Source: Escherichia phage LL5
Reading direction: 5' to 3' (one strand)
DNA: 49,788 bases
Sequence record: NC_047985.1
This document shows positions 1 to 24,985 of this stretch, piece after piece. The notes under the pieces were generated by a model. That model did not search any database. It was not told the origin of the DNA and saw only the letters and a program-made list of their open reading frames with translations. Every line of letters begins with the position of its first letter. Position 1 is the first letter of the stretch. The position numbers and the translations under genes were made by a program.

Positions 1-31
1 GGCGCAACGTTCCACAACACGTATAACAACA

Positions 32-50
32 AAATATCTATATAATACAT
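32..50 (+). repeat. 19-bp AT-rich motif AAATATCTATATAATACAT (copy 1)
   Basis: see copy at 28885-28903; contains TATAAT. Confidence 0.7.
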
Positions 51-302
51 TGAAAAGTAAGATAATTATTATTATATATCTATATTGTTATATAACTTGT
101 TTTGCTTGTTTCTCATGATATTGATACCCCTTTACTGATTGATAGAGTATAAAATTATAAGATAGGTGCTCTTATTTATTATTGGTGGCGGTGATTTTTA
201 ACGAAATGGTGTAACGATTTAGAACATCGTTGATTTAAAAGGATAAATTTTCAATTACCGTTACATTGCGTGATGTTTTTGTTGTCTAATCAAAAATAAC
301 AC

Positions 303-330
303 TTGACGCACAAGCCAGATTTGCTAAGGT
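303..330 (+). promoter_or_regulatory. sigma70-like promoter (TTGACG-16 nt-TAAGGT) upstream of first early gene
   Basis: -35 TTGACG at 303-308, -10 TAAGGT at 325-330, then SD GGAGG and ATG 365. Confidence 0.45.
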
Positions 331-364
331 TTCTGCATTGAGCAACAACGGAGGATAACCAATT

Positions 365-652
365 ATGGTAATGGGCAAAATCGTAAAGCGTGACCTATCC
401 ATAGTTGACGCAACGCCAGAAGATGCAACAAAAGACATTATGTGCCTAATGTACATAGCGCGGATACTGGAGGCGGCAAAACCAAACAGGCTATATTACA
501 TCGACATTAAGGCATCAGGTCGCGACGTTAATTCATTGCGCCAGGCAATAAACACGATTGCGAAAGAGGATCGCATAACCATTAAGACAATAACCACTGA
601 TAACGGCTATATCGGCTTTGTTATCATCGACGTTAAAGAAGCATTTGTGTAA
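365..652 (+). CDS. hypothetical early protein (95 aa)
   Basis: ORF with GGAGG 10 nt upstream of ATG; no recognisable motif. Confidence 0.6.
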   Translation: MVMGKIVKRDLSIVDATPEDATKDIMCLMYIARILEAAKPNRLYYIDIKASGRDVNSLRQAINTIAKEDRITIKTITTDNGYIGFVIIDVKEAFV

Positions 653-663
653 AGAGGTGAATC

Positions 664-1107
664 ATGGAACAAATGACAAGTAAAGAGTTTTGCGAAAAAT
701 TGCGTGAAGCAGCAAGAGCGGCGGCTACAGGTGAGGCGATCAAGTTGCCAGTTGCCTACATCACAATGCACGTTCAGGCAGAGGACGCAAAGAAGCTAAA
801 TTCCTCATACATTCGCACGATCATGAATCGTGTTCCAGAAGTAAAAGAGGTTGGATCTGTAAGCGTCAAGAAAAAGACAAGCGATGACGGCGCGGAATAT
901 TACGAGATCGCAATCAATCGTGACACAAAGCGCCGCATCGTAACAACTAATGACCTTCCGGCAATCAAAGAGCATGAACGCGAAAAACTGGTTGAAAAGA
1001 TTATGCGCATATCGCCGGACTTCTCACACCTGGACGATGAAAAGGCACTTGTTGCAATGCGAGCGGTTGCCACGTTCAAAGATCTGATTAAGGAGATCTC
1101 AAAGTGA
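664..1107 (+). CDS. hypothetical early protein (147 aa)
   Basis: ORF with AGAGG SD; tightly follows previous gene. Confidence 0.6.
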   Translation: MEQMTSKEFCEKLREAARAAATGEAIKLPVAYITMHVQAEDAKKLNSSYIRTIMNRVPEVKEVGSVSVKKKTSDDGAEYYEIAINRDTKRRIVTTNDLPAIKEHEREKLVEKIMRISPDFSHLDDEKALVAMRAVATFKDLIKEISK

Positions 1108-1211
1108 AAACATTCGCCTTTGTCGCTGCAATGTGGTGTGTTGTTATTGATAGTCCTGGCGTGGCGCTGGTTGTGTTAGGTCTTATTTTGTTGGGGGTGT
1201 TTGATGAATAA
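1104..1211 (+). CDS. small hydrophobic peptide (35 aa, GTG start)
   Basis: GTG overlaps upstream stop (GTGA), AGGAG 8 nt upstream; predicted single TM helix. Confidence 0.35.
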   Translation: MKTFAFVAAMWCVVIDSPGVALVVLGLILLGVFDE

Positions 1212-1317
1212 GAAACTTTTAGATCATGCAGTGCTGTTCTTTATCGCTGCTGCTGGATTTTCGCTGTTGTCAATTGCTTTTTTAATACTTGCTTTTGCCG
1301 TGTCAATGCTGAAATGA
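1204..1317 (+). CDS. small hydrophobic peptide (37 aa)
   Basis: ATG preceded by GGGGG; hydrophobic core LFFIAAAGFSLLSIAFLILAFAV. Confidence 0.35.
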   Translation: MNKKLLDHAVLFFIAAAGFSLLSIAFLILAFAVSMLK

Positions 1318-1337
1318 CGGATTACATCCTGATTGGT

Positions 1338-1359
1338 AAATAGCACTTTTTGTTAAAAC
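1338..1359 (+). promoter_or_regulatory. conserved box copy 1 (AAATAGCAC-N5-TGTTAAAAC); function unknown
   Basis: TAGCA/TGTTA inverted repeat; hairpin GGGGTA..TACCCC follows; 74 nt upstream of ATG 1415. Confidence 0.7.
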
Positions 1360-1414
1360 TCGATTGGGGTAGTTTGGAATAATTACCCCATAGAAACACA
1401 ACGGAGAAAATAAA

Positions 1415-1678
1415 ATGCAATTCGAACTAACCCGCGTAACTGTTGAAATTCTGAATGACGGAACCTATGACGGAATGAAGCATTTAACATTCCCAATCAG
1501 AATTGAGAATTGCCTTGATTATGGCTTGGAAGTCGGAATGGTTGACGTTCCTCTTGATGCCCTGGTTGCGGCTGGTTATGACAAGGTAAAAGGCGGTATG
1601 AATCCAGAATCGCCGGATTGCATGGATAGTGACACGTTTTTACCGTTCAGCTATGGCGAATGCCGGATTGTTGATTAA
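1415..1678 (+). CDS. hypothetical protein (87 aa)
   Basis: ORF with GGAG SD. Confidence 0.55.
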   Translation: MQFELTRVTVEILNDGTYDGMKHLTFPIRIENCLDYGLEVGMVDVPLDALVAAGYDKVKGGMNPESPDCMDSDTFLPFSYGECRIVD

Positions 1679-1749
1679 GGTTATAAAATGAGCAGTTGGC
1701 ACAATGAGCACGTAATGCAATTCTACCGCCACAGAATAAAGAAAATGCT

Positions 1750-1771
1750 AAATAGCACGAATTGCTAAAAC
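1750..1771 (+). promoter_or_regulatory. conserved box copy 2 (AAATAGCACGAATTGCTAAAAC)
   Basis: perfect TAGCA-N5-TGCTA; followed by hairpin with loop ATTTGTTATAGC; 77 nt upstream of ATG 1830. Confidence 0.7.
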
Positions 1772-1829
1772 TAAATCAGGGGCATTTGTTATAGCGTCCC
1801 TCGTTGAGTTAAGCAAAGGAGAATCAACA

Positions 1830-2396
1830 ATGTTAAGCATCGAAAAAATCAACTTCCCGATCACCTTTAAATTCTATCATCCTGACATGCAAGTTACTTT
1901 CACCAGTAAAACGCACGGAGAATGGGGATGTGGTGGAATAACCGGATTTAAACTTGAGTATTTCGTTAACAAGCACAACAACAAAAATCCAGATAATATC
2001 CATGGCAAAGATGGGTATTATGAAATGGCTGCTTGTGGCAGAGAAGAAAAACGAGAGTATGACGATCTGTTAGACGCTTTGAAATATTTAAATATCAAGC
2101 CTGGCCAGGTCAATTTAAACGGTGCTGTATTCACTGCGTCAGTAGGTGCTAAAGATTACGATTACATTTGCAAGGTTGAAAACATGCCAGTTGGCGCAAC
2201 GCTGTTAGGTGTTCAGCGTGAAAACGGCGAATGGGACGAGTTGAAATTTAAACCACGCCGCATTGAAGTACACGACGATGTTATCTGCTTGCTTTCCGGT
2301 TATGCTGGCGGCTACAAGAGCGGCAATAATTACGGCGCTGAAATCAACATTAAGATCGGCACTAACGTAAAAATCAAAAACAGCACTAATTGCTAA
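1830..2396 (+). CDS. hypothetical protein (188 aa)
   Basis: ORF with AAGGAG SD; C-terminal residues NSTNC are encoded by box copy 3. Confidence 0.6.
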   Translation: MLSIEKINFPITFKFYHPDMQVTFTSKTHGEWGCGGITGFKLEYFVNKHNNKNPDNIHGKDGYYEMAACGREEKREYDDLLDALKYLNIKPGQVNLNGAVFTASVGAKDYDYICKVENMPVGATLLGVQRENGEWDELKFKPRRIEVHDDVICLLSGYAGGYKSGNNYGAEINIKIGTNVKIKNSTNC

Positions 2397-2399
2397 AAC
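2378..2399 (+). promoter_or_regulatory. conserved box copy 3, degenerate (AAACAGCACTAATTGCTAAAAC)
   Basis: TAG position is CAG, so upstream ORF reads through to TAA inside the box; 75 nt upstream of ATG 2456. Confidence 0.6.
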
Positions 2400-2455
2400 A
2401 AATTAACGGCCTTGCTATATAGTAAGACCATACCAAACAACGAGAGGATCACAAA

Positions 2456-2770
2456 ATGGAATTAGCACGCAACGCGGTTTATGGCTTACACCTTAAAGGC
2501 GGCAAAGGATCAACTTATGCACACCTGTTTCATGTTAACGAGCGAGGCCAAATTGATATTGCAATGTATGTTGACCAACTTGTTAAAGGTGGTGAGTACG
2601 ACAAGTTCAGGCCGGATCTGATTGAATACGATCACACATACAGTCACGACCACTGGTTAGATGGTTATAAATTTACAATGCTGGATAGCCATGTTATTGA
2701 CACAAGCAAATTAACGAATCGTGACTATAAGCGCATGGCTCGAAAAATCTTGAAGCAGAAAGCACAATAG
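2456..2770 (+). CDS. hypothetical protein (104 aa)
   Basis: ORF with GAGAGG SD. Confidence 0.55.
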   Translation: MELARNAVYGLHLKGGKGSTYAHLFHVNERGQIDIAMYVDQLVKGGEYDKFRPDLIEYDHTYSHDHWLDGYKFTMLDSHVIDTSKLTNRDYKRMARKILKQKAQ

Positions 2771-2842
2771 CACAAAATGTTAAGCGGTCATGTGTGCTGA
2801 TTGGTACAATGACCGCATCAACCAACAAGAGAGGATAGAAAA

Positions 2843-2950
2843 ATGTCAAAAGAATCAATCAAGCAGTTTCTGAAATACGGCTCTATGATTGTGCTCGCTA
2901 CCGTTGTGCTGGCTGGCATCGCGTATAGCATTATTGAGTTTGCGGGGTAA
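2843..2950 (+). CDS. small membrane peptide (35 aa)
   Basis: AGAGAGG SD; hydrophobic stretch MIVLATVVLAGIAYSII. Confidence 0.4.
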   Translation: MSKESIKQFLKYGSMIVLATVVLAGIAYSIIEFAG

Positions 2951-2953
2951 TTG

Positions 2954-3496
2954 ATGTTTACGATCAACTTGTGGGGAAGGGATTATGTTAATCCCTATGT
3001 TGCAACAAAACAGCGTTTCGTTATTTTCGACCTAGACGGCACATTGTCAAATGGTGAGCACCGCTTGCACCTGTTGCCAACGGTTGATTTGCACCTTACT
3101 GAAAGCTGGAGTGAGTTTAATCGCGCGGCTAAGGATGATTTACCGTTCAGCAATAACATTGCCGTATGCAATGCCATGTTTGATGCAGGATATCTGGTTA
3201 TCATCCTAACAGGTCGCAGTGATGAAGTTGAAGCGGAAACGCGAGAATGGTTGGCTGAAAACGGCGTTTCTTTCGATTGGCTTATTATGCGCCGCACGGA
3301 GGACAACCGGAAAGATACCGTAATCAAAGAGGAAGTTTTACGGACTATAGGACTTGATCGTATTGTGGCGTGTTGGGATGATTCACCAAACGTTATTGCA
3401 CACCTGCGCGGCCTGGGCTTGACGGTTTACCAGGTCATTGACTACGGCGACCAGTTGCACGATCACTTAAAGTCTCACGGAGTTGAGAAGTTATGA
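2954..3496 (+). CDS. HAD-superfamily phosphatase (polynucleotide 3'-phosphatase-like)
   Basis: N-terminal DxDGT motif (FVIFDLDGTL), later ILTGR and C-terminal acidic motif; resembles the phosphatase half of T4-type polynucleotide kinase. Confidence 0.65.
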   Translation: MFTINLWGRDYVNPYVATKQRFVIFDLDGTLSNGEHRLHLLPTVDLHLTESWSEFNRAAKDDLPFSNNIAVCNAMFDAGYLVIILTGRSDEVEAETREWLAENGVSFDWLIMRRTEDNRKDTVIKEEVLRTIGLDRIVACWDDSPNVIAHLRGLGLTVYQVIDYGDQLHDHLKSHGVEKL

Positions 3497-3669
3497 AACT
3501 AAAATGCATCGGTGAATATCCAGGCTTTACGGTTGGAAACATGTACAATGCGACAATAGGAATGGATCACACATTTTGTTATGAATGCTATGTTGTCATT
3601 GATGATGATGGTGATTCACGTAGCATTGATTTCGAAACAGAGGATTTTGTAGAGGATCGCTATCTGTGA
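3493..3669 (+). CDS. hypothetical protein (58 aa)
   Basis: ATGA start/stop overlap with upstream gene; GGAG SD. Confidence 0.45.
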   Translation: MKLKCIGEYPGFTVGNMYNATIGMDHTFCYECYVVIDDDGDSRSIDFETEDFVEDRYL

Positions 3670-3763
3670 TTGAAAACTATGATCCAATGGCGCTTGCCTG
3701 GGGCGTTGGTGCTTTCGTTGTGGCGGTTGTGATTTGCTTATGGGATATAAACAGGGGGGATAG

Positions 3764-3973
3764 ATGATCCTGTCCGTTGCTTATGCTAACCCCAGGGGGT
3801 GCAATATATTTGGTTTTAAGGTTGGCGGCATGGTTAACGCCAAATACGACGACAGAGGGCGTTTAATGGTTGAAGCGCCAAAGACAAAAGTAATGATGCA
3901 CGTTAAGGAGATTGGCGGAAGGTTGGCGATCAGGTCAATGGCAGGGCAAACGCTTGTTACTTTCTGTAAATAG
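3764..3973 (+). CDS. hypothetical protein (69 aa)
   Basis: ORF with GGGGGG SD; stop TAG lies inside box copy 4. Confidence 0.5.
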   Translation: MILSVAYANPRGCNIFGFKVGGMVNAKYDDRGRLMVEAPKTKVMMHVKEIGGRLAIRSMAGQTLVTFCK

Positions 3974-3989
3974 CACTTTTTGCTAAAAC
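3968..3989 (+). promoter_or_regulatory. conserved box copy 4 (AAATAGCACTTTTTGCTAAAAC)
   Basis: followed by perfect 8-bp hairpin 3995-4020 with loop TTTGATAAAG; 76 nt upstream of ATG 4047. Confidence 0.7.
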
Positions 3990-4046
3990 TTGCTAAGGCA
4001 CATTTGATAAAGTGTGCCTTGTCGAGACAAGCAAGGAGAATGACAC

Positions 4047-4301
4047 ATGAAACATTACAGGTGCGGCAGTCTTATTTATCGTGACGATTGGGTTAATATT
4101 TTTGTCGCATATTATGACAAGATGGAATTTTTTGAATCCATTTACACAAGGAGCGTTTTTAATTCAATGGTTGATGCCGGATTCATGAAAGAGTGTGAGC
4201 CACCAAAAGAGAAGCCGTTTTATAAAAATGGTGATTTCTGGCATAACGCCGTATTAATCACAGTTCTGTTAATTCTTTCTATGGGGTTTATTTTCTTATG
4301 A
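4047..4301 (+). CDS. hypothetical protein with C-terminal TM segment (84 aa)
   Basis: AAGGAG SD; C-terminal hydrophobic AVLITVLLILSMGFIFL. Confidence 0.5.
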   Translation: MKHYRCGSLIYRDDWVNIFVAYYDKMEFFESIYTRSVFNSMVDAGFMKECEPPKEKPFYKNGDFWHNAVLITVLLILSMGFIFL

Positions 4302-4480
4302 CACTTGATAATAAAGTTGAAACGCAAAAGACGATTGATTATCTGCGTGACCTGGCAGATAAGCTGGAGAATAACCAGATTCATTTAAACAAGATCGTTA
4401 TTGAATCGCGCAACGTTTGTTGGAACGTGGAAGAAGAAACATTGACAATGCAAGTTTTAAAGGCGGTAAACAATGGCTAA
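4298..4480 (+). CDS. hypothetical protein (60 aa)
   Basis: ATGA overlap with upstream stop. Confidence 0.45.
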   Translation: MTLDNKVETQKTIDYLRDLADKLENNQIHLNKIVIESRNVCWNVEEETLTMQVLKAVNNG

Positions 4481-5048
4481 AATTATCATCCTAAATGCGC
4501 CTCCTGGTGCTGGTAAAGACACAATCGGCAAGATGATTTCTTTCTATTCGCCTGGTGAGCAATGCCGCATCATTAGCTTTAAAGAGCCAATGTTTGATAT
4601 TGCATTAGCTATCCTGGGCAAAGAGAACTATCAGCGTTTCATGCTGGCTTACGATGACAGAGAGCAGAAAGAAAGGCCGCAAACGTTCCTGATGGGTATG
4701 TCGCCTCGAGAGTTCATGATCTGGATTAGCGAGGATGTGATCAAGCCTAAATTCGGCAAGGATTATTTCGGCGTAAGGTTTAACCAGAAAGTAAAAGAGT
4801 GTGATGCTCCTGTTGTTTGCACTGACGGAGGTTTTCCAGATGAAATTATCGCGCTAATCAATGCTGGTAATGAAGTGAAGCTATGCCGTTTGCATCGCGA
4901 CGGGTTCACGTTTGCAGGTGATAGCCGCAACTACATTCGAATCAATCCCTATTACCAGAAAAACGGATATAGCGAGCACGATTACTTACTAACGAATGAA
5001 AAGCCGATGATTACAGTTAGCGAAATCATTCGCGATCACCTTAAATAG
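4473..5048 (+). CDS. P-loop nucleotide or polynucleotide kinase
   Basis: Walker A near N-terminus (LNAPPGAGKDT), typical of small phage dNMP/polynucleotide kinases; stop TAG inside box copy 5. Confidence 0.65.
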   Translation: MAKIIILNAPPGAGKDTIGKMISFYSPGEQCRIISFKEPMFDIALAILGKENYQRFMLAYDDREQKERPQTFLMGMSPREFMIWISEDVIKPKFGKDYFGVRFNQKVKECDAPVVCTDGGFPDEIIALINAGNEVKLCRLHRDGFTFAGDSRNYIRINPYYQKNGYSEHDYLLTNEKPMITVSEIIRDHLK

Positions 5049-5064
5049 CACGAATTGCTAAAAC
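5043..5064 (+). promoter_or_regulatory. conserved box copy 5 (AAATAGCACGAATTGCTAAAAC)
   Basis: followed by hairpin 5071-5094 (AAGGCCA/TGGCCTT, loop TTTGATATAG). Confidence 0.7.
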
Positions 5065-5132
5065 TTGCGCAAGGCCATTTGATATAGTGGCCTTATTCAA
5101 GAGAAGCAACCAATCAGAGGAATAAACGATGA

Positions 5133-5172
5133 AAATCAAATGCACCAAATCAAATGCACCAAATCAAACACC
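5133..5172 (+). repeat. 14-bp tandem repeat (AAATCAAATGCACC x2 plus 12-bp partial copy) at 5' end of ORF
   Basis: two exact units at 5133-5146 and 5147-5160; third copy lacks TG. Confidence 0.8.
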
Positions 5173-5340
5173 CTGAATCTGACAGTTGGCGCGATTTACC
5201 ATATGGAAGAAGGTGTAAACGGGTTTAGCCAGACTGTTACGCATGAATACGGCGGTCACTTCTTCTTAAACGGTAAAGACGGATTATCTGTAAATGTTGG
5301 CTCTTTCGTTCTGGCAGAATTTGAGATCGTGGAGGAATAA
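5140..5340 (+). CDS. hypothetical protein (66 aa); start context disturbed by tandem repeat
   Basis: well-placed ATG 5129 (GAGG 8 nt upstream) is out of frame; in-frame ATG 5140 has no SD. Confidence 0.4.
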   Translation: MHQIKCTKSNTLNLTVGAIYHMEEGVNGFSQTVTHEYGGHFFLNGKDGLSVNVGSFVLAEFEIVEE

Positions 5341-5341
5341 A

Positions 5342-5506
5342 ATGTTCTGGATTCATTCGCCGCAAGGATTGCTTTATGTGCCTGGCGTTGAATTGGAAGA
5401 ACGACGCGACGGCGACACGGTAAACATCATAACGAAGGATTCAAAAGGCCATACGCTTAAAACGTATGTTTTTAACACTCCAGTTAAGGTTGAAAAAGAT
5501 GATTAA
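5342..5506 (+). CDS. hypothetical protein (54 aa)
   Basis: GGAGG SD 6 nt upstream of ATG 5342. Confidence 0.45.
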   Translation: MFWIHSPQGLLYVPGVELEERRDGDTVNIITKDSKGHTLKTYVFNTPVKVEKDD

Positions 5507-5625
5507 GATGTGGTTAATATTTATCCTGCTTGTCATAATTGGCAATATTTTGATTGTCGCTTATTGTGTTCCTTTTGGTGGCACTGTTTTGGCTATGGCT
5601 GGTTATTACGTGGGGTACAAATCAA

Positions 5626-5871
5626 ATGAATAGAAAAATGCTGGTACGCGCATTCGCAAAGATTGCTAAAAGATGGGGTGATTCAGCTAAAACGCCTTAC
5701 ACGTTTAGTATGTACGGTTACAAGAATGCTCGCGCCTGGGGTCGCTGCATTGCGGATAACTACAACTCCGAAATGCTGGAAGATTTCGCAAAGTGGATTG
5801 ATACGCCTTTGAAGGATTGGTGTCAATTTGACTATGACTATTTCGCAGAAGAAGAAATTTCTTGTTGGTAA
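5626..5871 (+). CDS. hypothetical protein (81 aa)
   Basis: first ATG of ORF; upstream part of track ORF uses TTG; a 44-aa membrane-peptide ORF (5499-5633) overlaps. Confidence 0.4.
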   Translation: MNRKMLVRAFAKIAKRWGDSAKTPYTFSMYGYKNARAWGRCIADNYNSEMLEDFAKWIDTPLKDWCQFDYDYFAEEEISCW

Positions 5872-5882
5872 GGAGAGTAAAC

Positions 5883-6353
5883 ATGATCGCTAAAAATGAC
5901 CTTTGCAACATGTTAACGGCTGGTAATGATTATCAGGTTTTGAATAGCACAGAAGACCATTATTTTATTGAGTGTGATAATGGGGATCGCATGTGGATTA
6001 AAAAATGCTTTTTCGAAAGCGAGCACCTAAGCAATGCAAAGCGGATCGCAGATGAAGCAAGCGCATTAGCAGAGCGTGAACGAATTCGCGATATAGTAGC
6101 TGAGCAGGTTAGAAATTCTTGTTTGCCTGGTGGCGATATCTTCAATCACGTAAAAGGCGTTGGCGGCTCAGGCTGGCAGATTAAAAAGACTGGTGATGCA
6201 ATCATTCAAAGCATCAACTATGAGCCTAACGAATACGTCAAAGTGCTGGATCAGTTGCGCGAAATCATGCGAGTGCCTGAAGGTGAAAGCATTGTGACAC
6301 ATGCAAAGGTTTTAATGGCGTTGGCTGATGCGCTGATTTGTCTGCAAAAATAG
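5883..6353 (+). CDS. hypothetical protein (156 aa)
   Basis: AGGAG SD then ATG 5883; stop TAG inside box copy 6. Confidence 0.55.
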   Translation: MIAKNDLCNMLTAGNDYQVLNSTEDHYFIECDNGDRMWIKKCFFESEHLSNAKRIADEASALAERERIRDIVAEQVRNSCLPGGDIFNHVKGVGGSGWQIKKTGDAIIQSINYEPNEYVKVLDQLREIMRVPEGESIVTHAKVLMALADALICLQK

Positions 6354-6369
6354 CACTTTTTGTTAAAAC
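6348..6369 (+). promoter_or_regulatory. conserved box copy 6 (AAATAGCACTTTTTGTTAAAAC)
   Basis: followed by hairpin 6377-6398 (loop TTTGTTAAAG, one G.T pair); 76 nt upstream of ATG 6427. Confidence 0.7.
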
Positions 6370-6426
6370 TTCCGCGAGGGCATTTGTTAAAGTGTCCTAA
6401 TTGAAGCGAAACATGGAGATTACGAA

Positions 6427-6630
6427 ATGGCTGTATACACTGGCAAGATGTTTGAATGTCTCAATCCGATTTACGGCGGCAACTATGAGCTAATCATTGA
6501 TGATGATCGCGTTATTCTTGCTAATGATGACGCTGAAGAATATCACGAGGTTGTAGCGGATAAGTACGATAATGACGTTATGATCTTAGCAGGAAACAAC
6601 CGCATCAAGTTTTACGCAGTGGAGGAATAA
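6427..6630 (+). CDS. hypothetical protein (67 aa)
   Basis: ORF with GGAG SD. Confidence 0.5.
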   Translation: MAVYTGKMFECLNPIYGGNYELIIDDDRVILANDDAEEYHEVVADKYDNDVMILAGNNRIKFYAVEE

Positions 6631-6633
6631 CAG

Positions 6634-6939
6634 ATGATCGAAATCAACCTATCAGAAGAACAAGCGAAATCGTTGCTAATGTGCCTGGGTTGGCGCATGG
6701 GCGCAGGTAGCGAGGCGGTTGTAAACATCAAAGAGGAAGTAGCAAGAGAGCTTTTTGCACAGCTTGAGCATAAACTGATGCCAGCCTCAACAAGCGCGGC
6801 GGAGTTGGCTGTGTGGAGGCATGAAAACGGCCTTAATGAAATGGATGTTGAAAAGTGGAAGCGTAAAAACGGGAAAGCTGTTGATAAGGTTGGTTTTGTT
6901 GGTCGCTGTATTATGGTTAACGTGGAGAAGTTCAGATGA
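6634..6939 (+). CDS. hypothetical protein (101 aa)
   Basis: ORF with GGAGG SD. Confidence 0.55.
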   Translation: MIEINLSEEQAKSLLMCLGWRMGAGSEAVVNIKEEVARELFAQLEHKLMPASTSAAELAVWRHENGLNEMDVEKWKRKNGKAVDKVGFVGRCIMVNVEKFR

Positions 6940-7253
6940 TTTATGTTCATAGCTACGGCGTTGGAAAGTTTGGCAGTAAGCAGATCCGAAATATTCACGA
7001 CACGCTCGATGAAGCAATGGCGCAGAAACGCGTTTTAGGTGGAGTGGTTCAGGCGTTTGAATCTGTTGAGAACATAGCTGCTAACGAGTATTACAAAGAC
7101 GTTGTTGTGGATGAGGTTTCGACAATCATCGACGAACTAAGCACGTCAGCGCTAGGCTCACCACGCGATCTTGAGTCGGGTTCTCCAGCGTGGGATAGCT
7201 ACAAGGTCAAGACTTTAAACAACATCCGCGAGCTACTTGACGAAATCAATTAA
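6936..7253 (+). CDS. hypothetical protein (105 aa)
   Basis: ATGA overlap with upstream gene. Confidence 0.55.
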   Translation: MIYVHSYGVGKFGSKQIRNIHDTLDEAMAQKRVLGGVVQAFESVENIAANEYYKDVVVDEVSTIIDELSTSALGSPRDLESGSPAWDSYKVKTLNNIRELLDEIN

Positions 7254-7271
7254 AAATCGATACTGTTTAAA

Positions 7272-7305
7272 GCGCCTCAGACGCATTCTAAGAGGCGCAA
7301 AATTT
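7272..7305 (+). terminator. putative terminator hairpin (GCGCCTC..GAGGCGC) with A/T tract
   Basis: 7-bp GC-rich inverted repeat then AAAATTT, 20 nt after stop of 6936-7253. Confidence 0.35.
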
Positions 7306-7319
7306 GGAAAGGTGATTCT

Positions 7320-7448
7320 ATGCCTAACTACATAAAACCGTCGCAGTGGTGCGCACAGAAGCAAGAGGAAGCGTTAGAGCGCGGCGACACTGATACAGCG
7401 TTGCACTATTTTGAAATGCACCAACTATGGATTAGCAGAGGAATGTAA
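7320..7448 (+). CDS. hypothetical small protein (42 aa)
   Basis: AAGGTG SD; below track length cutoff. Confidence 0.35.
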   Translation: MPNYIKPSQWCAQKQEEALERGDTDTALHYFEMHQLWISRGM

Positions 7449-7449
7449 A

Positions 7450-7677
7450 ATGTTTGGACTTAACGAGGAACAATACAACGCAATAAAGAAAATGGCTCGC
7501 GAGTGCAACAAAGAATTGAAATTCGAATGTGACAACGGCAAGAAGTATGATCACGTTGCAACGGGAATTATCACAAAGCACCACACGCCAGTTTCGACGC
7601 TAATCACTCGCATTAGTTTTATTTGGCTTTGCGGTCACTTAGCGGAGCGGTTCGGTAGGGTTGGCGAGTACGAATAA
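7450..7677 (+). CDS. hypothetical protein (75 aa)
   Basis: GAGG SD then ATG 7450 (track ORF extends upstream without SD). Confidence 0.45.
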   Translation: MFGLNEEQYNAIKKMARECNKELKFECDNGKKYDHVATGIITKHHTPVSTLITRISFIWLCGHLAERFGRVGEYE

Positions 7678-7859
7678 TAGCCAGTTGAATCTGGTAAGGT
7701 TGACGGCGTGTTGTCTGATTGGTAGATTAAACGCCGTGAACATAAGAGACTCAATAGAGCAAAGCGCGGCGCGTTAGCCGTAAAGCCAAATCGGATGGGA
7801 TTGCATTGCAAATGACCATCGCGGGAACCGTAACCCGCAACCACTCAGGAGATTAATTT

Positions 7860-8069
7860 ATGAAATGCACTTTGCTTTTCAAAGAAAGAGTTTTGCACCC
7901 TGGTAGCGAACTTCTTGTTAATCGCGTCATTGTTTCAGAAAAAGATTTCTATATTGATGTTCAAAGGGATGGTGTCATAATCTTAAACAAAGAAGATACA
8001 AAGGCGTTTTCATTCCCAAAACACAACATCATCCAGCTTATCGTAGAGGAAGAAAATAATGCAGAATAA
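7860..8069 (+). CDS. hypothetical protein (69 aa)
   Basis: AGGAG SD. Confidence 0.5.
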   Translation: MKCTLLFKERVLHPGSELLVNRVIVSEKDFYIDVQRDGVIILNKEDTKAFSFPKHNIIQLIVEEENNAE

Positions 8070-8220
8070 AGAAATTGCAAAGGTTACAATCATTGTTGAG
8101 CGCGACGGCAAGAAAACGCGATACAAAAAACGCTTTGCAAAAGGAGAGGCGGTATTAGGCCGGATCGGTGATTTCATGGTGAAATTGCAAGAGGATAAGC
8201 CTGATGAAGTGGAAAGTTAA
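8059..8220 (+). CDS. hypothetical small protein (53 aa)
   Basis: GAGGA SD 8 nt upstream; overlaps neighbours at both ends. Confidence 0.3.
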   Translation: MQNKEIAKVTIIVERDGKKTRYKKRFAKGEAVLGRIGDFMVKLQEDKPDEVES

Positions 8221-8386
8221 CTTTACCATTAGGCGCATTGGTCGCAATTGCGGATCATGCAAACAAGAATTTGAAACGGTTGTTACAGCATGTAGCGCTG
8301 AAATGGCTGTAAGATTTGCTAAAGAATATTCTGGAGCAGATCCAGAAACGCACCAATTTTCAATCAATTATGTGAGGGCTATATAA
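8204..8386 (+). CDS. hypothetical protein (60 aa)
   Basis: GAGGA SD 9 nt upstream. Confidence 0.4.
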   Translation: MKWKVNFTIRRIGRNCGSCKQEFETVVTACSAEMAVRFAKEYSGADPETHQFSINYVRAI

Positions 8387-8616
8387 TGCTGATGTTTTTT
8401 TATGGTGTTGGCGTGACTGTTGCTATTGGTTTTCTGATTCTTTGGGCTATTGGCAAAGCCTCAAAGAAAATGGAAGTTGAACGAAAAATTGCAAGCGCGT
8501 TTTATGACAGCAAGAATGATTGCTGGAAGGTTCGAGGGAATTATATTGCTATTGCGCAAATCATTGAGAATCGCATAAAGCATGGCAAGCCTGGAAGCAT
8601 CAAGTATATTGACTAA
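8386..8616 (+). CDS. small membrane protein (76 aa)
   Basis: N-terminal TM helix MLMFFYGVGVTVAIGFLILWAIG. Confidence 0.45.
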   Translation: MLMFFYGVGVTVAIGFLILWAIGKASKKMEVERKIASAFYDSKNDCWKVRGNYIAIAQIIENRIKHGKPGSIKYID

Positions 8617-8632
8617 TCCAAAGCCGAAACAT

Positions 8633-8657
8633 AACCCGCCTTGCGCGGGTTTTTTTG
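8633..8657 (+). terminator. rho-independent terminator ending the early region
   Basis: CCCGC..GCGGG stem followed by 7 T. Confidence 0.7.
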
Positions 8658-8678
8658 TGCATACAATTTAGCTATAAT
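8650..8678 (+). promoter_or_regulatory. candidate late promoter (perfect -10 TATAAT, weak -35)
   Basis: TATAAT at 8673-8678 between terminator and small terminase start. Confidence 0.3.
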
Positions 8679-8703
8679 CACGCATCAACAGGAGGATTTT
8701 ATT

Positions 8704-9228
8704 ATGGCTAAAAAAACAGAAGCGCCAGCGGCGGAAAGTCTAAACTTTAAAAAGTTATGGAATAAGCGATATTCCGATCTGGTAGGTAGTGAGATTGATA
8801 AGCGCGCAACGCTAACGCCGGAACAAGTCATGAACCTGATTGTTCAGTATTTTGAGTGGGCGGAGCTAAACGCCATTAAAGCAGGTGAAACGGCATCCTT
8901 TCAGGGTCGAGTGTATCAGGATACGATTCACAAGCCGCGTATTTTTACATGGGAAGGGTTAAAGCTGTTTTGCGGTTTTTCCGGCACAGCACTAGCAAAG
9001 TGGAAACTTAAACCAGGCTATGATGTTGTTATTGAGTTTGCGGAATCGGTAATCAAAGAACAAAAATACCAGTTAGCTGCAAACGGAATGATTAACAGCA
9101 CCATGATCGCAAAAGAGCTTGGCATTGATAAAGGCGACACGTTCAATATTAGCGCCAACGCAAAAGAGCAAGACAATACAGAAGAAGCGATGAAAAACGC
9201 AGTCGCAAGCGTCCTAAGCAAGATTTAA
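8704..9228 (+). CDS. terminase small subunit (putative)
   Basis: 174-aa ORF directly upstream of large terminase at head of late operon; AGGAGG SD; call is positional. Confidence 0.55.
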   Translation: MAKKTEAPAAESLNFKKLWNKRYSDLVGSEIDKRATLTPEQVMNLIVQYFEWAELNAIKAGETASFQGRVYQDTIHKPRIFTWEGLKLFCGFSGTALAKWKLKPGYDVVIEFAESVIKEQKYQLAANGMINSTMIAKELGIDKGDTFNISANAKEQDNTEEAMKNAVASVLSKI

Positions 9229-9230
9229 AG

Positions 9231-10811
9231 GTGAATGCTATGTTGATTTGGGAAGATTTAACAAAACTTGAAAAGCTGGCTATTAAGGAATTAAGCACAC
9301 ACGATTTTGATACTTTCGTTAAAATCTGGTTCCCGATCCAGCAGGGAGAAAAATGGATTCCTAACTGGCATCACCTTTATATTGCAAGGGCAATTGATGA
9401 AATTATTGAAGGTGTGCGCAAAGATACCATTTTTAACGTAACGCCAGGCTCAGGCAAAACCGAATTGCTTTCGATCCACTTTCCGCCTTATTCATATCTA
9501 AAATTGAACAAGGTGCGAAATCTGAATATTTCGTTTGCTGATACACTGGTTAAACGTAACAGCAAGCGTGTGCGAGATCTGGTTAACTCGCGAGAATGGC
9601 AAGAGCTTTACCCAGCAAAAACTGGTACAAGCAAGGATGATGAATTTCAGATCCTTAATGACGCTGGCAAAGTTCGCCTGGAAATGATTAGTAAATCAAT
9701 GGGCGGTCAGATTACTGGTAGTCGTGGCGGTTACATCACGCCTGGCGTTTATTCCGGTTGTGTGACGCTTGATGATCCAGAAAAGCCGGATGATATGTTT
9801 TCGAAGGTGAAGCGTGAGCGCGGTCAAATGATCGCAAAGAACACCATTCGATCACGTCGCGCACATTCAGAAACGCCGATTATCGTTATTCAGCAGCGTC
9901 TACACGCGCAGGATATGACCTGGTTTCTGATGAATGGCGGAATGGGTATTGAATTTGATCAGATATCAATTCCGTCGATGGTTACAGAGGAATACGGGAA
10001 ATCGCTTCCTGATTGGTTACAGCCTCATTTTGAAAAAGATGTGCTTTCGTCTGAATACATCGTTATTGACGGCGTGAAGTATTATTCTTTCTGGCCTAGC
10101 AAGGAAAGCATCCATGATCTTAAAGCGCTACGCGATGCTGATTTGTACACGTTCCTTTCTCAGTATCAGCAAGAGCCAATTGCTCTTGGAGGTAACGCAA
10201 TTAACGTTGGATGGTTCCAGTATTACGGAACCGGAGAAAAATCAACGATGCCAAAACCGGATCGCTTTGATTATACGTTTATTACAGCAGATACCGCTCA
10301 GAAAGAAGGTGAGCTAAACGACTACAGCGTTTTATGTTATTGGGGCATGTTCAAAGGCCGTATATATTTTATTGACGGTGTGCGCGGAAAATGGGAAGCG
10401 CCAATGTTAGAAACGCAGTTTAAAGCGTTTGTTAAACAGTGCTGGAACCGTAACAAAGAATGCGGAAACTTGCGTAAAATTTACGTGGAAGATAAAGCCA
10501 GCGGTACAGGTCTGATCCAGAATTGCCGCAAAGAATTTCCGATAGAAATTACGCCAGTGCAACGCGATAAAGACAAAGTAACGCGCTGCATGGACGCACA
10601 GCCAGTGATCAAGAATGGTTATGTTGTATTGCCTGAATCGCATCACATGCTTGCTGAATTTCTGGCAGAGGCGGCGGCATTCACTTATGATGATAGCCAT
10701 CCTCATGATGATATTATGGATAACCTTTTTGATGCGGTTAATATTGAGCTTAACCTTGCTGATAATGCGGTTGATAGAATGAAGCGTTTAGCTGGATTAG
10801 CGAAGCGTTAA
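9231..10811 (+). CDS. terminase large subunit
   Basis: 526 aa; N-terminal ATPase P-loop-like VTPGSGKTE; C-terminal RNaseH-like nuclease region. Confidence 0.9.
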   Translation: MNAMLIWEDLTKLEKLAIKELSTHDFDTFVKIWFPIQQGEKWIPNWHHLYIARAIDEIIEGVRKDTIFNVTPGSGKTELLSIHFPPYSYLKLNKVRNLNISFADTLVKRNSKRVRDLVNSREWQELYPAKTGTSKDDEFQILNDAGKVRLEMISKSMGGQITGSRGGYITPGVYSGCVTLDDPEKPDDMFSKVKRERGQMIAKNTIRSRRAHSETPIIVIQQRLHAQDMTWFLMNGGMGIEFDQISIPSMVTEEYGKSLPDWLQPHFEKDVLSSEYIVIDGVKYYSFWPSKESIHDLKALRDADLYTFLSQYQQEPIALGGNAINVGWFQYYGTGEKSTMPKPDRFDYTFITADTAQKEGELNDYSVLCYWGMFKGRIYFIDGVRGKWEAPMLETQFKAFVKQCWNRNKECGNLRKIYVEDKASGTGLIQNCRKEFPIEITPVQRDKDKVTRCMDAQPVIKNGYVVLPESHHMLAEFLAEAAAFTYDDSHPHDDIMDNLFDAVNIELNLADNAVDRMKRLAGLAKR

Positions 10812-14909: not shown

Positions 14910-14958
14910 CGTGCTAACACAAAAAACACTTGAACGTTTAACAAAAAATGCTATATTA

Positions 14959-22772: not shown

Positions 22773-22797
22773 AGCCGCCATTGTGCGGCTTTTTTAT
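22773..22797 (+). terminator. hairpin plus T-tract between M-like and L-like genes
   Basis: AGCCGC-CATTGT-GCGGCT then TTTTT. Confidence 0.55.
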
Positions 22798-22834
22798 TGT
22801 GTCTATAATGGTGCTTTATTGGAGGGCATATAAT

Positions 22835-24936: not shown

Positions 24937-24985
24937 TTACATGTACAATGGCAGCACGTTTAAATAGCATAAAAGGTTAAAAGCT

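What the first reader, a model, noticed from the sequence alone, without database searches (positions are those of the whole stretch)
365..8616. Dense block of about 28 small early ORFs with no recognisable function
Apart from the phosphatase and kinase, the early region encodes only short proteins (25-190 aa), several with a single predicted transmembrane helix (1104-1317, 2843-2950, 4047-4301, 5499-5633, 8386-8616). Many have overlapping start/stop codons and each group is served by its own box element. Regions like this in lytic phages typically hold host-takeover and anti-defence proteins and are where new inhibitors of restriction, CRISPR or abortive-infection systems are found.
Basis: inference. 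Interest (0 to 1): 0.45.

Follow-up and report, generated by a model that had tools for sequence, protein, structure and literature searches.

The report
Small-gene arm of coliphage LL5

Summary
The window is the 49,788-bp genome of Escherichia phage LL5 (Tlsvirus, Drexlerviridae). Positions 365-8616 hold 30 co-oriented ORFs of 26-191 aa. They are 90% coding, and 13 of 29 junctions overlap.

It is the counterpart of TLS gp01-gp28 and T1 ST77-ST55, a small-gene arm already described for T1-like phages. Three genes have names:
- A Pnkp-type 3'-phosphatase domain with no kinase domain.
- A P-loop dNMP-kinase-like protein.

Seven ORFs are small single-helix membrane proteins. Profile searches, two structure predictions with fold searches, and one exhaustive search gave no function for the rest.

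The block is mosaic within the genus. The 'box elements' are the published 21-nt TLS repeat. Here each sits a fixed 19 nt upstream of an extended -10 motif, inside a covarying hairpin. Seven boxes serve seven gene groups; three groups have none.

Early timing and anti-defence roles remain inference apart from Stp. This is an already known, ordinary feature, useful only as a screening target.

The parts
121..148 (+). sigma-70-like promoter candidate (TTGATA-16-TAGAGT with TG) in the AT-rich leader upstream of the first gene
   Evidence: Consensus scan only. The leader 1-364 is 96-97% identical in MBBL140, CF1 and SP-126.
365..652 (+). g01, 95 aa, unknown
   Evidence: phrog_28623 at 2e-61. Present in 3 of 7 relatives. 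dN/dS 0.10.
664..1107 (+). g02, 147 aa, DUF7174, unknown
   Evidence: PF23796 at 1.6e-47. Two allele types, 96-99% or ~40% identical. Only 52 clusters in 1.84 billion proteins, all stand-alone and ~150 aa.
1104..1211 (+). g03, 35 aa, single TM helix
   Evidence: phrog_22353. Maximum hydropathy 2.45. GTG start with an AGGAG ribosome-binding site.
1204..1317 (+). g04, 37 aa, single TM helix; least certain call
   Evidence: Hydropathy 2.59. No PHROG match. 95% conserved. Some records instead annotate a minus-strand ORF here.
1340..1396 (+). box-promoter module 1: box 1340-1358, -10-like AATAAT 1378-1383, hairpin
1415..1678 (+). g05, 87 aa, acidic (pI 4.2), unknown; shares a mini-operon with stp
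   Evidence: phrog_13854. dN/dS 0.06. Homologues only on Tlsvirus-like contigs.
1688..1768 (+). g06 = Stp, 26 aa, inhibitor of type Ic restriction and activator of PrrC
   Evidence: PF08133 at 34.8 bits against a cut-off of 25. phrog_6763 at 4e-15. 100% identical to annotated TLS stp. 13 of the first 18 residues, including 5-14, are identical to T4-type Stp.
1752..1808 (+). box-promoter module 2; the box encodes the last six Stp codons and its stop codon
1830..2396 (+). g07, 188 aa (LL5 gp06), unknown; two small beta domains
2380..2436 (+). box-promoter module 3
   Evidence: Orthologous stems show compensatory changes.
2456..2770 (+). g08, 104 aa, unknown
   Evidence: phrog_8382. dN/dS 0.12.
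2767..2823 (+). box-promoter module 4: degenerate box (3 mismatches), TACAAT, 8-bp inverted repeat
2843..2950 (+). g09, 35 aa, single TM helix
   Evidence: phrog_17726. Hydropathy 2.19. dN/dS 0.03.
2954..3496 (+). g10, 180 aa, HAD-type Pnkp 3'-phosphatase domain alone, no kinase domain
   Evidence: PF25109 at 2e-19. Matches the phosphatase domains of PDB 4xrp (2e-9) and T4 Pnkp 1ltq (1e-3). D26-x-D28-x-T30 motif read from the sequence.
3493..3669 (+). g11, 58 aa, acidic, unknown; part of a swapped cassette
   Evidence: phrog_25234. Found only in DanielBernoulli among the 7 relatives.
   Evidence: Hydropathy 2.36. No PHROG match. Found only in DanielBernoulli.
3764..3973 (+). g13, 69 aa, basic, unknown
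   Evidence: No PHROG or Pfam match. Absent from the 7 relatives. Present in 44 phage records of other Drexlerviridae, next to the pnk gene.
3970..4026 (+). box-promoter module 5
4047..4301 (+). g14, 84 aa, C-terminal TM helix
   Evidence: phrog_30280. Hydropathy 2.19.
4298..4480 (+). g15, 60 aa, unknown
   Evidence: phrog_16293. 58-92% identity among relatives.
4473..5048 (+). g16, 191 aa, P-loop protein resembling dNMP kinases
   Evidence: phrog_139 at 1e-48. No Pfam or PDB sequence match. T1 ST62 is 50% identical.
5045..5101 (+). box-promoter module 6
5140..5340 (+). g17, 66 aa, unknown
   Evidence: phrog_9122. dN/dS 0.17.
5342..5506 (+). g18, 54 aa, unknown
   Evidence: phrog_20227. dN/dS 0.05.
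5499..5633 (+). g19, 44 aa, single TM helix
   Evidence: Hydropathy 2.98. No PHROG match. Present in 3 of 7 relatives; dN/dS 0.51 from few changes.
5626..5871 (+). g20, 81 aa, unknown; homologous to the C-terminal half of T1 ST65
   Evidence: phrog_8758, profile positions 73-148 of 151. BLASTP against ST65 gives 3e-8.
5883..6353 (+). g21, 156 aa, unknown; SH3-like N-terminal domain plus helices; not a GntR regulator
6350..6406 (+). box-promoter module 7
6427..6630 (+). g22, 67 aa, acidic, unknown
   Evidence: phrog_6031. dN/dS 0.14.
6634..6939 (+). g23, 101 aa, DUF7180, unknown
   Evidence: PF23805 at 5e-31. A T1 homologue is 36% identical.
6936..7253 (+). g24, 105 aa, acidic, unknown
   Evidence: phrog_11192. 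dN/dS 0.16.
7272..7298 (+). hairpin GCGCCTC/GAGGCGC in the box-less gap; the equivalent site is annotated as a terminator in phage Stevie
   Evidence: Sequence read. Stevie annotation.
7320..7448 (+). g25, 42 aa, unknown
   Evidence: phrog_1312. dN/dS 0.19.
7450..7677 (+). g26, 75 aa, unknown
   Evidence: phrog_303. T1 ST59 is 38% identical.
7678..7859 (+). conserved 182-nt non-coding gap with a sigma-70-like extended -10 promoter candidate (7700-7728)
   Evidence: Promoter from the consensus scan. 90-96% identical in 6 relatives. RNA fold z-score -2.5.
7860..8069 (+). g27, 69 aa, unknown
   Evidence: phrog_30084. Present in 4 of 7 relatives.
8059..8220 (+). g28, 53 aa, basic, unknown
   Evidence: phrog_6666. 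A T1 homologue is 56% identical.
8204..8386 (+). g29, 60 aa, unknown
   Evidence: phrog_2919. A T1 homologue is 41% identical.
8386..8616 (+). g30, 76 aa, N-terminal TM helix, DUF7299
   Evidence: PF23973 at 4e-27. Hydropathy 2.31. Only ~39% identical to the allele in all 7 relatives.
8633..8651 (+). intrinsic terminator (7-bp GC-rich stem plus T-run) closing the block before the small terminase gene
   Evidence: Consensus scan. The same sequence matches two annotated rho-independent terminators of T1.

Best explanation
The interval is the non-structural small-gene arm of Escherichia phage LL5, the counterpart of TLS gp01-gp28 and T1 ST77-ST55. It is not one system. It is a string of about ten short operons of real but mostly uncharacterised accessory genes.

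Shown:
- The genes are under purifying selection and often translationally coupled.
- They are swapped cassette-wise among Drexlerviridae.
- Seven gene groups start behind the family-specific 19-21-nt box. The box lies a fixed 19 nt upstream of an extended -10 element (TGn-TAnAnT) and is wrapped in a covarying hairpin.
- The block ends at an intrinsic terminator before the terminase genes.

Inferred mechanism:
- Host sigma-70 RNA polymerase transcribes the operons without phage factors, so probably early.
- Stp binds type Ic restriction complexes (EcoprrI/EcoR124I type) and protects LL5 DNA, which carries such target sites.
- The Pnkp-type 3'-phosphatase and the P-loop kinase recycle nucleotides from degraded host DNA.
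- The seven single-helix membrane peptides act at the envelope, for example in superinfection exclusion or lysis timing.
- The remaining soluble proteins are dispensable, host- or defence-specific modulators whose targets cannot be read from sequence or predicted fold.
For: - Identity: g07 is 100% identical to LL5 gp06 on a 49,788-bp contig, matching the LL5 genome paper. 326 phage records match the block, and it is syntenic with TLS, Stevie, U136B and T1.
- Real genes: PHROG hits for 26 of 30 and dN/dS of 0.03-0.62.
- Mosaicism.
- Stp. Its biology is taken from PMC3014915.
- Type Ic target sites in LL5: 12 EcoR124I-type and 5 EcoprrI-type (the site sequences are from my memory).
- Phosphatase domain. 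Kinase-like protein.
- Host DNA degradation and nucleotide reuse in T1/TLS: PMC11447400.
- Box: 18 copies against 0.34 expected, all co-oriented with the genes; apart from one 2-mismatch copy at 14936-14954 on the minus strand, none lies in the structural module.
- Fixed -10 element: columns T36, G37, A40 and A42 are invariant and T44 nearly so.
- Hairpin: mean MFE -12.7 against -6.0 kcal/mol, 0 of 5000 resamples. 82.9% of cells pair against 66.3% in shuffles, and 8 of 12 pairs change on both sides. Orthologous stems show compensatory changes.
- Terminator.
Against: - There are no expression data for any T1-like phage, so 'early' is unproven.
- The block has the same orientation as the late genes and lies directly upstream of them.
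- The box's TTGnTA sits 22 bp from the -10 element, too far to serve as a -35. The promoters may therefore need a phage or host activator, which would make them middle rather than immediate-early.
- The sense-strand G.U pairs imply the hairpins act in read-through RNA, whose role is unknown.
- Stp activity of the LL5 variant is untested, and its last 8 residues differ from T4.
- No enzymatic data exist for the phosphatase or the kinase.
- 25 of the 30 products have no functional evidence at all.
Confidence: 0.75

Rival explanations
1. T4-style tRNA-repair module. Stp provokes the PrrC anticodon nuclease, and the adjacent 3'-phosphatase and P-loop kinase act as a split polynucleotide kinase-phosphatase that heals the cleaved tRNA-Lys.
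For: Stp and a Pnkp-type phosphatase domain lie 1.2 kb apart, with a P-loop kinase 1 kb further on. In T4, Stp, Pnk and Rnl1 form exactly such an attack and repair set.
Against: - The 180-aa protein has only the phosphatase domain.
- The kinase shows no sequence similarity to any PDB chain, T4 Pnkp included, at E up to 1. Its PHROG is dNMP kinase.
- No RNA ligase is annotated in TLS or LL5, and every TLS ORF of 300 aa or more already has another assignment.
- T1 has both enzymes but no Stp.
Confidence: 0.1
2. Much of the block is annotation noise: chance ORFs or decaying gene remnants in a non-essential spacer.
For: - Many ORFs are only 26-45 aa.
- Four have no PHROG match.
- g04 competes with a minus-strand ORF in other annotations.
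- g19 and g27 have dN/dS of 0.5-0.6 from few substitutions.
Against: - 90% of one strand is coding, ribosome-binding sites are present, and 13 stop/start junctions overlap.
- PHROG matches are full length.
- dN/dS is far below 1 even for 26-54-aa ORFs: Stp 0.13, g09 0.03, g18 0.05.
- Nine products are conserved as far as T1.
Confidence: 0.05
3. The block is mainly a regulatory and replication-support region. The box-hairpin modules are the functional core, as phage-specific activator or antiterminator sites, and the ORFs are secondary.
For: The box and hairpin are more strictly conserved than many ORFs between them. The same box precedes the recombination, primase, helicase and methylase genes elsewhere in the genome. 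The TLS authors leave the repeat's function open: stoperator, enhancer site or UP element.
Against: The ORFs are individually under purifying selection. The modules occupy only about 5% of the interval.
Confidence: 0.1

Closest known systems
TLS gp01-gp28 and T1 ST77-ST55: the small-gene arm upstream of the terminase genes in T1-like phages (Drexlerviridae)
   Same: Same position, orientation and gene order, and the same 21-nt repeat. 28 of 30 ORFs have homologues in 7 Tlsvirus genomes and 9 in T1. The literature describes it as clusters of small hypothetical genes at the genome ends.
   Different: LL5 carries its own mix of alleles. The g01/g02 pair is of the SP-126/CF1 type. The g11-g13 cassette is shared with DanielBernoulli, UTK0006 and other genera. 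The g30 allele is only ~39% identical to the relatives'.
T4 Stp (Pfam PF08133, anticodon nuclease activator family)
   Same: A 26-residue peptide. 13 of the first 18 residues are identical, including all of residues 5-14, where T4 loss-of-function mutations cluster. The Pfam score is above the gathering cut-off.
   Different: - The last 8 residues are unrelated and are encoded by the box element itself.
- The host phage has unmodified rather than glucosyl-HMC DNA, so anti-restriction is likely to be the primary benefit.
- No companion RNA ligase or full Pnkp is present.
T4 / Capnocytophaga Pnkp end-healing enzymes
   Same: The HAD phosphatase domain with its DxDxT motif aligns to the phosphatase domains of 4xrp and 1ltq.
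   Different: There is no kinase domain in the polypeptide (180 aa against 301-312 aa). The common annotation 'polynucleotide kinase' is therefore a misnomer here.
Early accessory regions of T7 (genes 0.3-1.3), T5 (pre-early) and T4 (delayed-early small ORFs)
   Same: Dense, translationally coupled small genes that are variable between relatives and include an anti-restriction factor.
   Different: There is no evidence for stepwise DNA entry or a dedicated early transcription programme. The promoters carry a family-specific upstream box and an overlapping hairpin rather than canonical -35 elements.

Membership tests
Tlsvirus / T1-like small-gene arm (TLS gp01-gp28) | Synteny: co-oriented small ORFs between the genome left end and terS/terL, sharing homologues with TLS and T1 | tested here: met
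   Megablast gives 82-87% coverage at 86-90% identity. Per-ORF tblastn. Annotated maps.
Tlsvirus / T1-like small-gene arm (TLS gp01-gp28) | Presence of the 21-nt repeat aaATAGCACnnnTTGnTAAAA about 76 nt upstream of start codons, in the direction of transcription | tested here: met
   18 copies in the window, of which 6 within 2 mismatches plus 1 degenerate lie in the block, all co-oriented. The definition is from PMC11447400.
Stp, anticodon nuclease activator family (PF08133) | 26-residue peptide scoring above the Pfam gathering threshold | tested here: met
   34.8 bits against a cut-off of 25. phrog_6763 at 4e-15.
Stp, anticodon nuclease activator family (PF08133) | Conserved N-proximal core, residues 4-14, needed for action on EcoprrI | tested here: met
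   Residues 5-14 ([10 protein letters not shown]) are identical to T4-type Stp; position 4 is W instead of F. The requirement is from PMC3014915.
Stp, anticodon nuclease activator family (PF08133) | Inhibits type Ic restriction and activates PrrC | not testable with these tools
   Needs plating and ACNase assays.
Bifunctional polynucleotide kinase-phosphatase (T4 Pnkp type) | C-terminal HAD 3'-phosphatase domain with a DxDxT nucleophile motif | tested here: met
   PF25109 at 2e-19. PDB 4xrp and 1ltq phosphatase domains. D26-L-D28-G-T30 in the translation.
Bifunctional polynucleotide kinase-phosphatase (T4 Pnkp type) | N-terminal P-loop 5'-kinase domain in the same polypeptide | tested here: not met
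   The protein is 180 aa. It aligns only to positions 157-290 of the 295-position Pnkp PHROG and to residues 196-311 of 4xrp.
dNMP kinase (phrog_139, T5-type) | P-loop NTPase matching the family profile | tested here: met
   phrog_139 at 1.3e-48 over residues 1-177. APPGAGKDT motif in the translation.
dNMP kinase (phrog_139, T5-type) | Phosphorylates dNMPs | not testable with these tools
   No Pfam, NCBIfam or PDB support. The name rests on the PHROG annotation only.
GntR-family transcriptional regulator (the annotation of g21 homologues in some records) | N-terminal winged helix-turn-helix DNA-binding domain | tested here: not met
   No GntR Pfam hit. The predicted N-terminal domain is an SH3-like beta barrel followed by long helices.
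Known anti-phage defence or candidate defence proteins (PADLOC-DB) | A significant profile match | tested here: not met
   10 ORFs scanned, with no hit below E = 0.02.

The most novel reading that the evidence does not exclude
At least one uncharacterised product is a new kind of anti-defence or host-takeover factor. Candidates are the acidic g05 co-transcribed with stp, and the horizontally exchanged g11-g13 cassette next to the phosphatase, whose g13 homologue also occurs in the unusually restriction-resistant phage FritzSarasin. Separately, the box plus covarying-hairpin modules could be a T1-family-specific transcription control device: an activator site fused to an extended -10 promoter and a read-through RNA structure that has not been dissected experimentally.
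Probability: 0.35. Interest if true: 0.5.

Novelty: already known. Interest (0 to 1): 0.22.

Why it matters
Practically, this is a reasonable place to screen for inhibitors of bacterial defences. LL5 is a component of a commercial phage product, and its close relatives TLS, U136B and Bas08 are laboratory models. Knowing which of these 30 genes set host range would help phage engineering.

Scientifically, nothing here is surprising. T1-like phages have long been known to carry clusters of small, variable, unassigned genes at their genome ends. The only assignable anti-defence gene, Stp, was already annotated in TLS.

This check adds three things:
- A cleaned gene list with evidence that even the 26-54-aa ORFs are selected.
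- Corrections to two common annotations. The 'polynucleotide kinase' is a phosphatase-only protein, and the 'GntR regulator' is not one.
- A sharper description of the box as an extended -10 promoter module carrying a conserved hairpin.

Tried and rejected
- Remote homology for all 30 ORFs (Pfam, PHROGs) gave only DUF or unknown families beyond Stp, the phosphatase and the kinase. NCBIfam and PADLOC on the ten largest unknowns gave nothing.
- PDB sequence searches with single sequences (g02, g07, g16, g21) and with profiles (g07, g21) gave no meaningful hit.
- An exhaustive HMMER search with g02, looking for informative domain fusions, found none. The two long hits are multi-stretch repetitive proteins, which I take to be spurious.
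- The idea that g19 and g20 are a split version of a longer membrane-anchored protein is rejected. T1 ST65 aligns only from the g20 start onwards.
- The idea that the box's TTGnTA is the -35 hexamer is rejected, because the spacing to the -10 is a constant 22 bp.
- The idea that the box hairpins are ordinary intrinsic terminators is rejected for the block copies, which have no T-run after the stem.
- Rfam found no known RNA family in 1-9300.
- Literature searches for transcriptomes or anti-defence work on Drexlerviridae early genes found nothing specific.

Full report
**Identity of the window.** The 188-aa product of 1830-2396 is 100% identical to 'gp06 [Escherichia phage LL5]' on a contig of exactly 49,788 bp. 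The LL5 genome announcement gives the same length and places terS and terL at gp29 and gp30. Megablast of 365-8616 finds 326 phage records. The best are Tlsvirus genomes at 86-90% identity: TLS, Stevie, CF1, U136B, DanielBernoulli/Bas08 and a mislabelled 'Streptococcus phage MBBL140'. The window is therefore a published T1-like genome (Drexlerviridae, Tempevirinae, Tlsvirus), and the finding concerns its left arm.

**Checking the observation.** After choosing starts by ribosome-binding site, I count 30 + strand ORFs from 365 to 8616.
- Sizes run from 26 to 191 aa, median 69. They cover 90% of the interval, and 13 of 29 junctions overlap by 1-17 nt.
- 26 of 30 match PHROG families, mostly end to end.
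- Against seven Tlsvirus relatives, 28 have homologues and pooled pairwise dN/dS is 0.03-0.62. This includes tiny ORFs: Stp 0.13, the 35-aa g09 0.03, the 54-aa g18 0.05.
- Of the two without a dN/dS estimate, g13 has homologues in 44 other phage records. g30 has only ~39%-identical homologues in the relatives and matches DUF7299.
It also shows that 1104-1317 is two ORFs, each with a helix, and adds 3666-3767.
- The weakest calls are g04, where some records annotate a minus-strand ORF instead, and g19 and g27, which have few substitutions.

The dense block of real small genes is confirmed.

**What has a name.**
- *Stp (1688-1768).* This encodes [26 protein letters not shown]. It scores 34.8 bits on Pfam PF08133 (cut-off 25) and 4e-15 on phrog_6763 'activator of host PrrC lysyl-tRNA endonuclease'. 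It is 100% identical to the annotated stp of TLS. It shares 13 of its first 18 residues, including all of 5-14, with the T4-type peptide [26 protein letters not shown]. According to the T4 review PMC3014915, Stp inhibits type Ic restriction enzymes (EcoprrI, EcoR124I) but not type Ia. Loss-of-function mutations cluster in residues 4-14, and removing the last eight codons only moderately lowers activity. The LL5 peptide keeps the critical part.
- *The 'phosphatase' (2954-3496).* This is a HAD domain of the Pnkp type: PF25109 at 2e-19, and PDB 4xrp and T4 1ltq over their phosphatase domains only, with a D26-x-D28-x-T30 motif. It has no kinase domain, so the widespread label 'polynucleotide kinase' is a misnomer.
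- *The 'kinase' (4473-5048).* This matches phrog_139 (dNMP kinase) at 1e-48 but nothing in Pfam, NCBIfam or the PDB.

**What stays unknown.**
- DUF7174 (g02), DUF7180 (g23), DUF7299 (g30) and a marginal DUF6501 (g21) are the only other Pfam hits.
- NCBIfam and PADLOC gave nothing.
- PDB searches with sequences and with family profiles gave nothing.
- The model of g21 (pLDDT 71) has an SH3-like N-terminal domain and long helices. This does not fit the 'GntR-family regulator' label some records give its homologues.
- An exhaustive HMMER search with g02 found only 52 clusters in 1.84 billion proteins. All real hits are stand-alone proteins of about 150 aa, so there are no informative fusions.
- Homologues of g05, g07 and g21 occur essentially only on ~50-kb Tlsvirus-like contigs.

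**Mosaicism.** Identity to seven congeneric phages varies gene by gene from 100% to about 35%, or to absence.
- g01 is present in 3 of 7 relatives.
- g02 has two allele types (96-99% or ~40%).
- g11-g12 occur only in DanielBernoulli, and g13 in none of the seven.
- g30 is ~39% identical in all of them.
- Nine products reach T1 at 33-57%.
- g13 recurs in 44 records of other Drexlerviridae genera, always next to the pnk-type gene.

This cassette-wise exchange is what accessory regions look like.

**Transcription signals.** The 'box' is the published TLS repeat aaATAGCACnnnTTGnTAAAA (PMC11447400). That paper leaves its function open: stoperator, enhancer site or UP element.
- *Distribution.* The window has 18 copies within 2 mismatches against 0.34 expected. 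All are co-oriented with the local genes. Apart from one 2-mismatch copy at 14936-14954 on the minus strand, none lies in the structural module between 10 and 30 kb.
- *In the block.* There are seven including a degenerate one at 2767. Each 59-97-nt gap between 1317 and 6427 has one. The groups starting at 365, 7320 and 7860 have none.
- *A fixed -10 element.* Aligning the copies shows a -10-like hexamer exactly 19 nt after the box. In the 21 distinct block-type copies from LL5 and relatives, the columns corresponding to -15T, -14G, -11A and -9A are invariant and -7T nearly so. That is the signature of an extended -10 sigma-70 promoter.
- *Not a -35.* The box's TTGnTA lies a constant 22 bp upstream of the hexamer, too far to act as a -35. 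The box occupies roughly -50 to -32.
- *An overlapping hairpin.* The 45 nt after the box fold to a mean of -12.7 kcal/mol against -6.0 for random 45-mers of the window (0 of 5000 resamples). On the 21-sequence alignment 82.9% of cells pair, against 66.3% in shuffles and 34-45% when the partner is slid. Eight of 12 pairs change on both sides.
- *Compensatory changes.* Orthologous copies of the third box carry stems GGCCTT/AAGGCC, GGGGTT/AACCCC, GGGCTT/AAGCCC and GAGCTT/AAGCTC.
- *Strand of the structure.* G.U pairs occur on the sense strand, which suggests the structure acts in read-through RNA. Caveat: the structure was derived from these same related sequences.
- *End of the block.* A strong intrinsic terminator at 8633-8651 closes the block. 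Its sequence matches two annotated T1 terminators.

**Is it early, and is it anti-defence?** Arguments for early expression by host polymerase:
- the promoters are host-type;
- the same box precedes the recombination, primase, helicase and methylase genes;
- the box is essentially absent from the structural module;
- a terminator separates the block from terS.

I found no transcriptome or proteome time course for any T1-like phage. The TLS authors speak of 'presumptive early gene products', and the LL5 infection cycle 'has not been characterized'.

Stp supports the anti-defence reading. LL5 DNA carries 12 EcoR124I-type and 5 EcoprrI-type sites (site sequences are from memory). On the other side, most Drexlerviridae are reported as very sensitive to restriction systems, and Bas08 is strongly blocked by Druantia III.

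T1 and TLS degrade host DNA and reuse the nucleotides. That gives the phosphatase and the dNMP-kinase-like protein a plausible salvage role; this is inference.

**The T4-style tRNA-repair reading is unlikely.** Four points count against it:
- the phosphatase protein has no kinase domain;
- the kinase shows no similarity to Pnkp;
- no RNA ligase is annotated, and every TLS ORF of 300 aa or more has another assignment;
- T1 has both enzymes without Stp.

**Verdict.** It is confirmed only for Stp, which was already annotated in TLS. No new system emerged. The block remains a legitimate but unspecific screening target.

Noticed in passing
window 1340-1396, 1752-1808, 2380-2436, 2767-2823, 3970-4026, 5045-5101, 6350-6406; also 30280, 35495(-), 38556, 39880, 45430(-), 46321(-), 49153(-): The known 21-nt repeat is followed at a fixed 19 nt by an extended -10 motif. 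In 14 of 18 copies it is overlapped by a stable hairpin whose sequence differs between copies and shows compensatory changes between orthologues, with sense-strand G.U pairs. The words 'hairpin', 'stem' and 'palindrom' do not occur in the TLS paper.
   Followed up: yes
window 1752-1770 and 2380-2398: The box overlaps coding sequence. It encodes the last residues (-NSTNC) and the stop codon of both Stp and g07, so two unrelated proteins share a C-terminal pentapeptide dictated by a regulatory repeat. Other boxes abut the upstream stop codon.
   Followed up: partly
window 7678-7859: This 182-nt non-coding gap is 90-96% identical in six relatives. That is more conserved than the flanking genes: g26 is 55-64% identical at protein level, and g27 is absent from three relatives. 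It contains a TTGACG-17-TAGATT extended -10 promoter candidate, and its predicted RNA fold has a z-score of -2.5. No Rfam family matches.
   Followed up: partly
window 8633-8651; L008 (T1) 22785-22816 and 24969-24993: The terminator hairpin that closes the block is nearly identical in sequence to two annotated rho-independent terminators in the T1 tail-gene region. A terminator cassette appears to be reused across the family.
   Followed up: no
window 3764-3973: Homologues of g13 occur next to the pnk-type gene in other Drexlerviridae genera. These include FritzSarasin/Bas04 (67% identical), one of the few family members reported as highly restriction-resistant. They also occur in 17 records labelled 'Campylobacter phage', which look like mislabelled T1-like genomes.
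   Followed up: no
whole window: Type I target sites look depleted: 1 EcoKI-type site against 6.5 expected, and 5 EcoprrI-type against 13.9 expected. EcoR124I-type sites are not depleted (12 against 12.7). The recognition sequences were taken from memory.
   Followed up: partly
L004 (OR786094.1): The closest public relative in the phage collection is deposited as 'Streptococcus phage MBBL140' with host S. agalactiae. It is a Tlsvirus about 90% identical to an E. coli phage, so the host label is almost certainly wrong.
   Followed up: no
window 5883-6353 and homologues: Several GenBank and UniRef records name this protein 'GntR-family transcriptional regulator'. The predicted fold (an SH3-like domain plus helices) and the absence of any GntR profile hit do not support that name.
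   Followed up: yes
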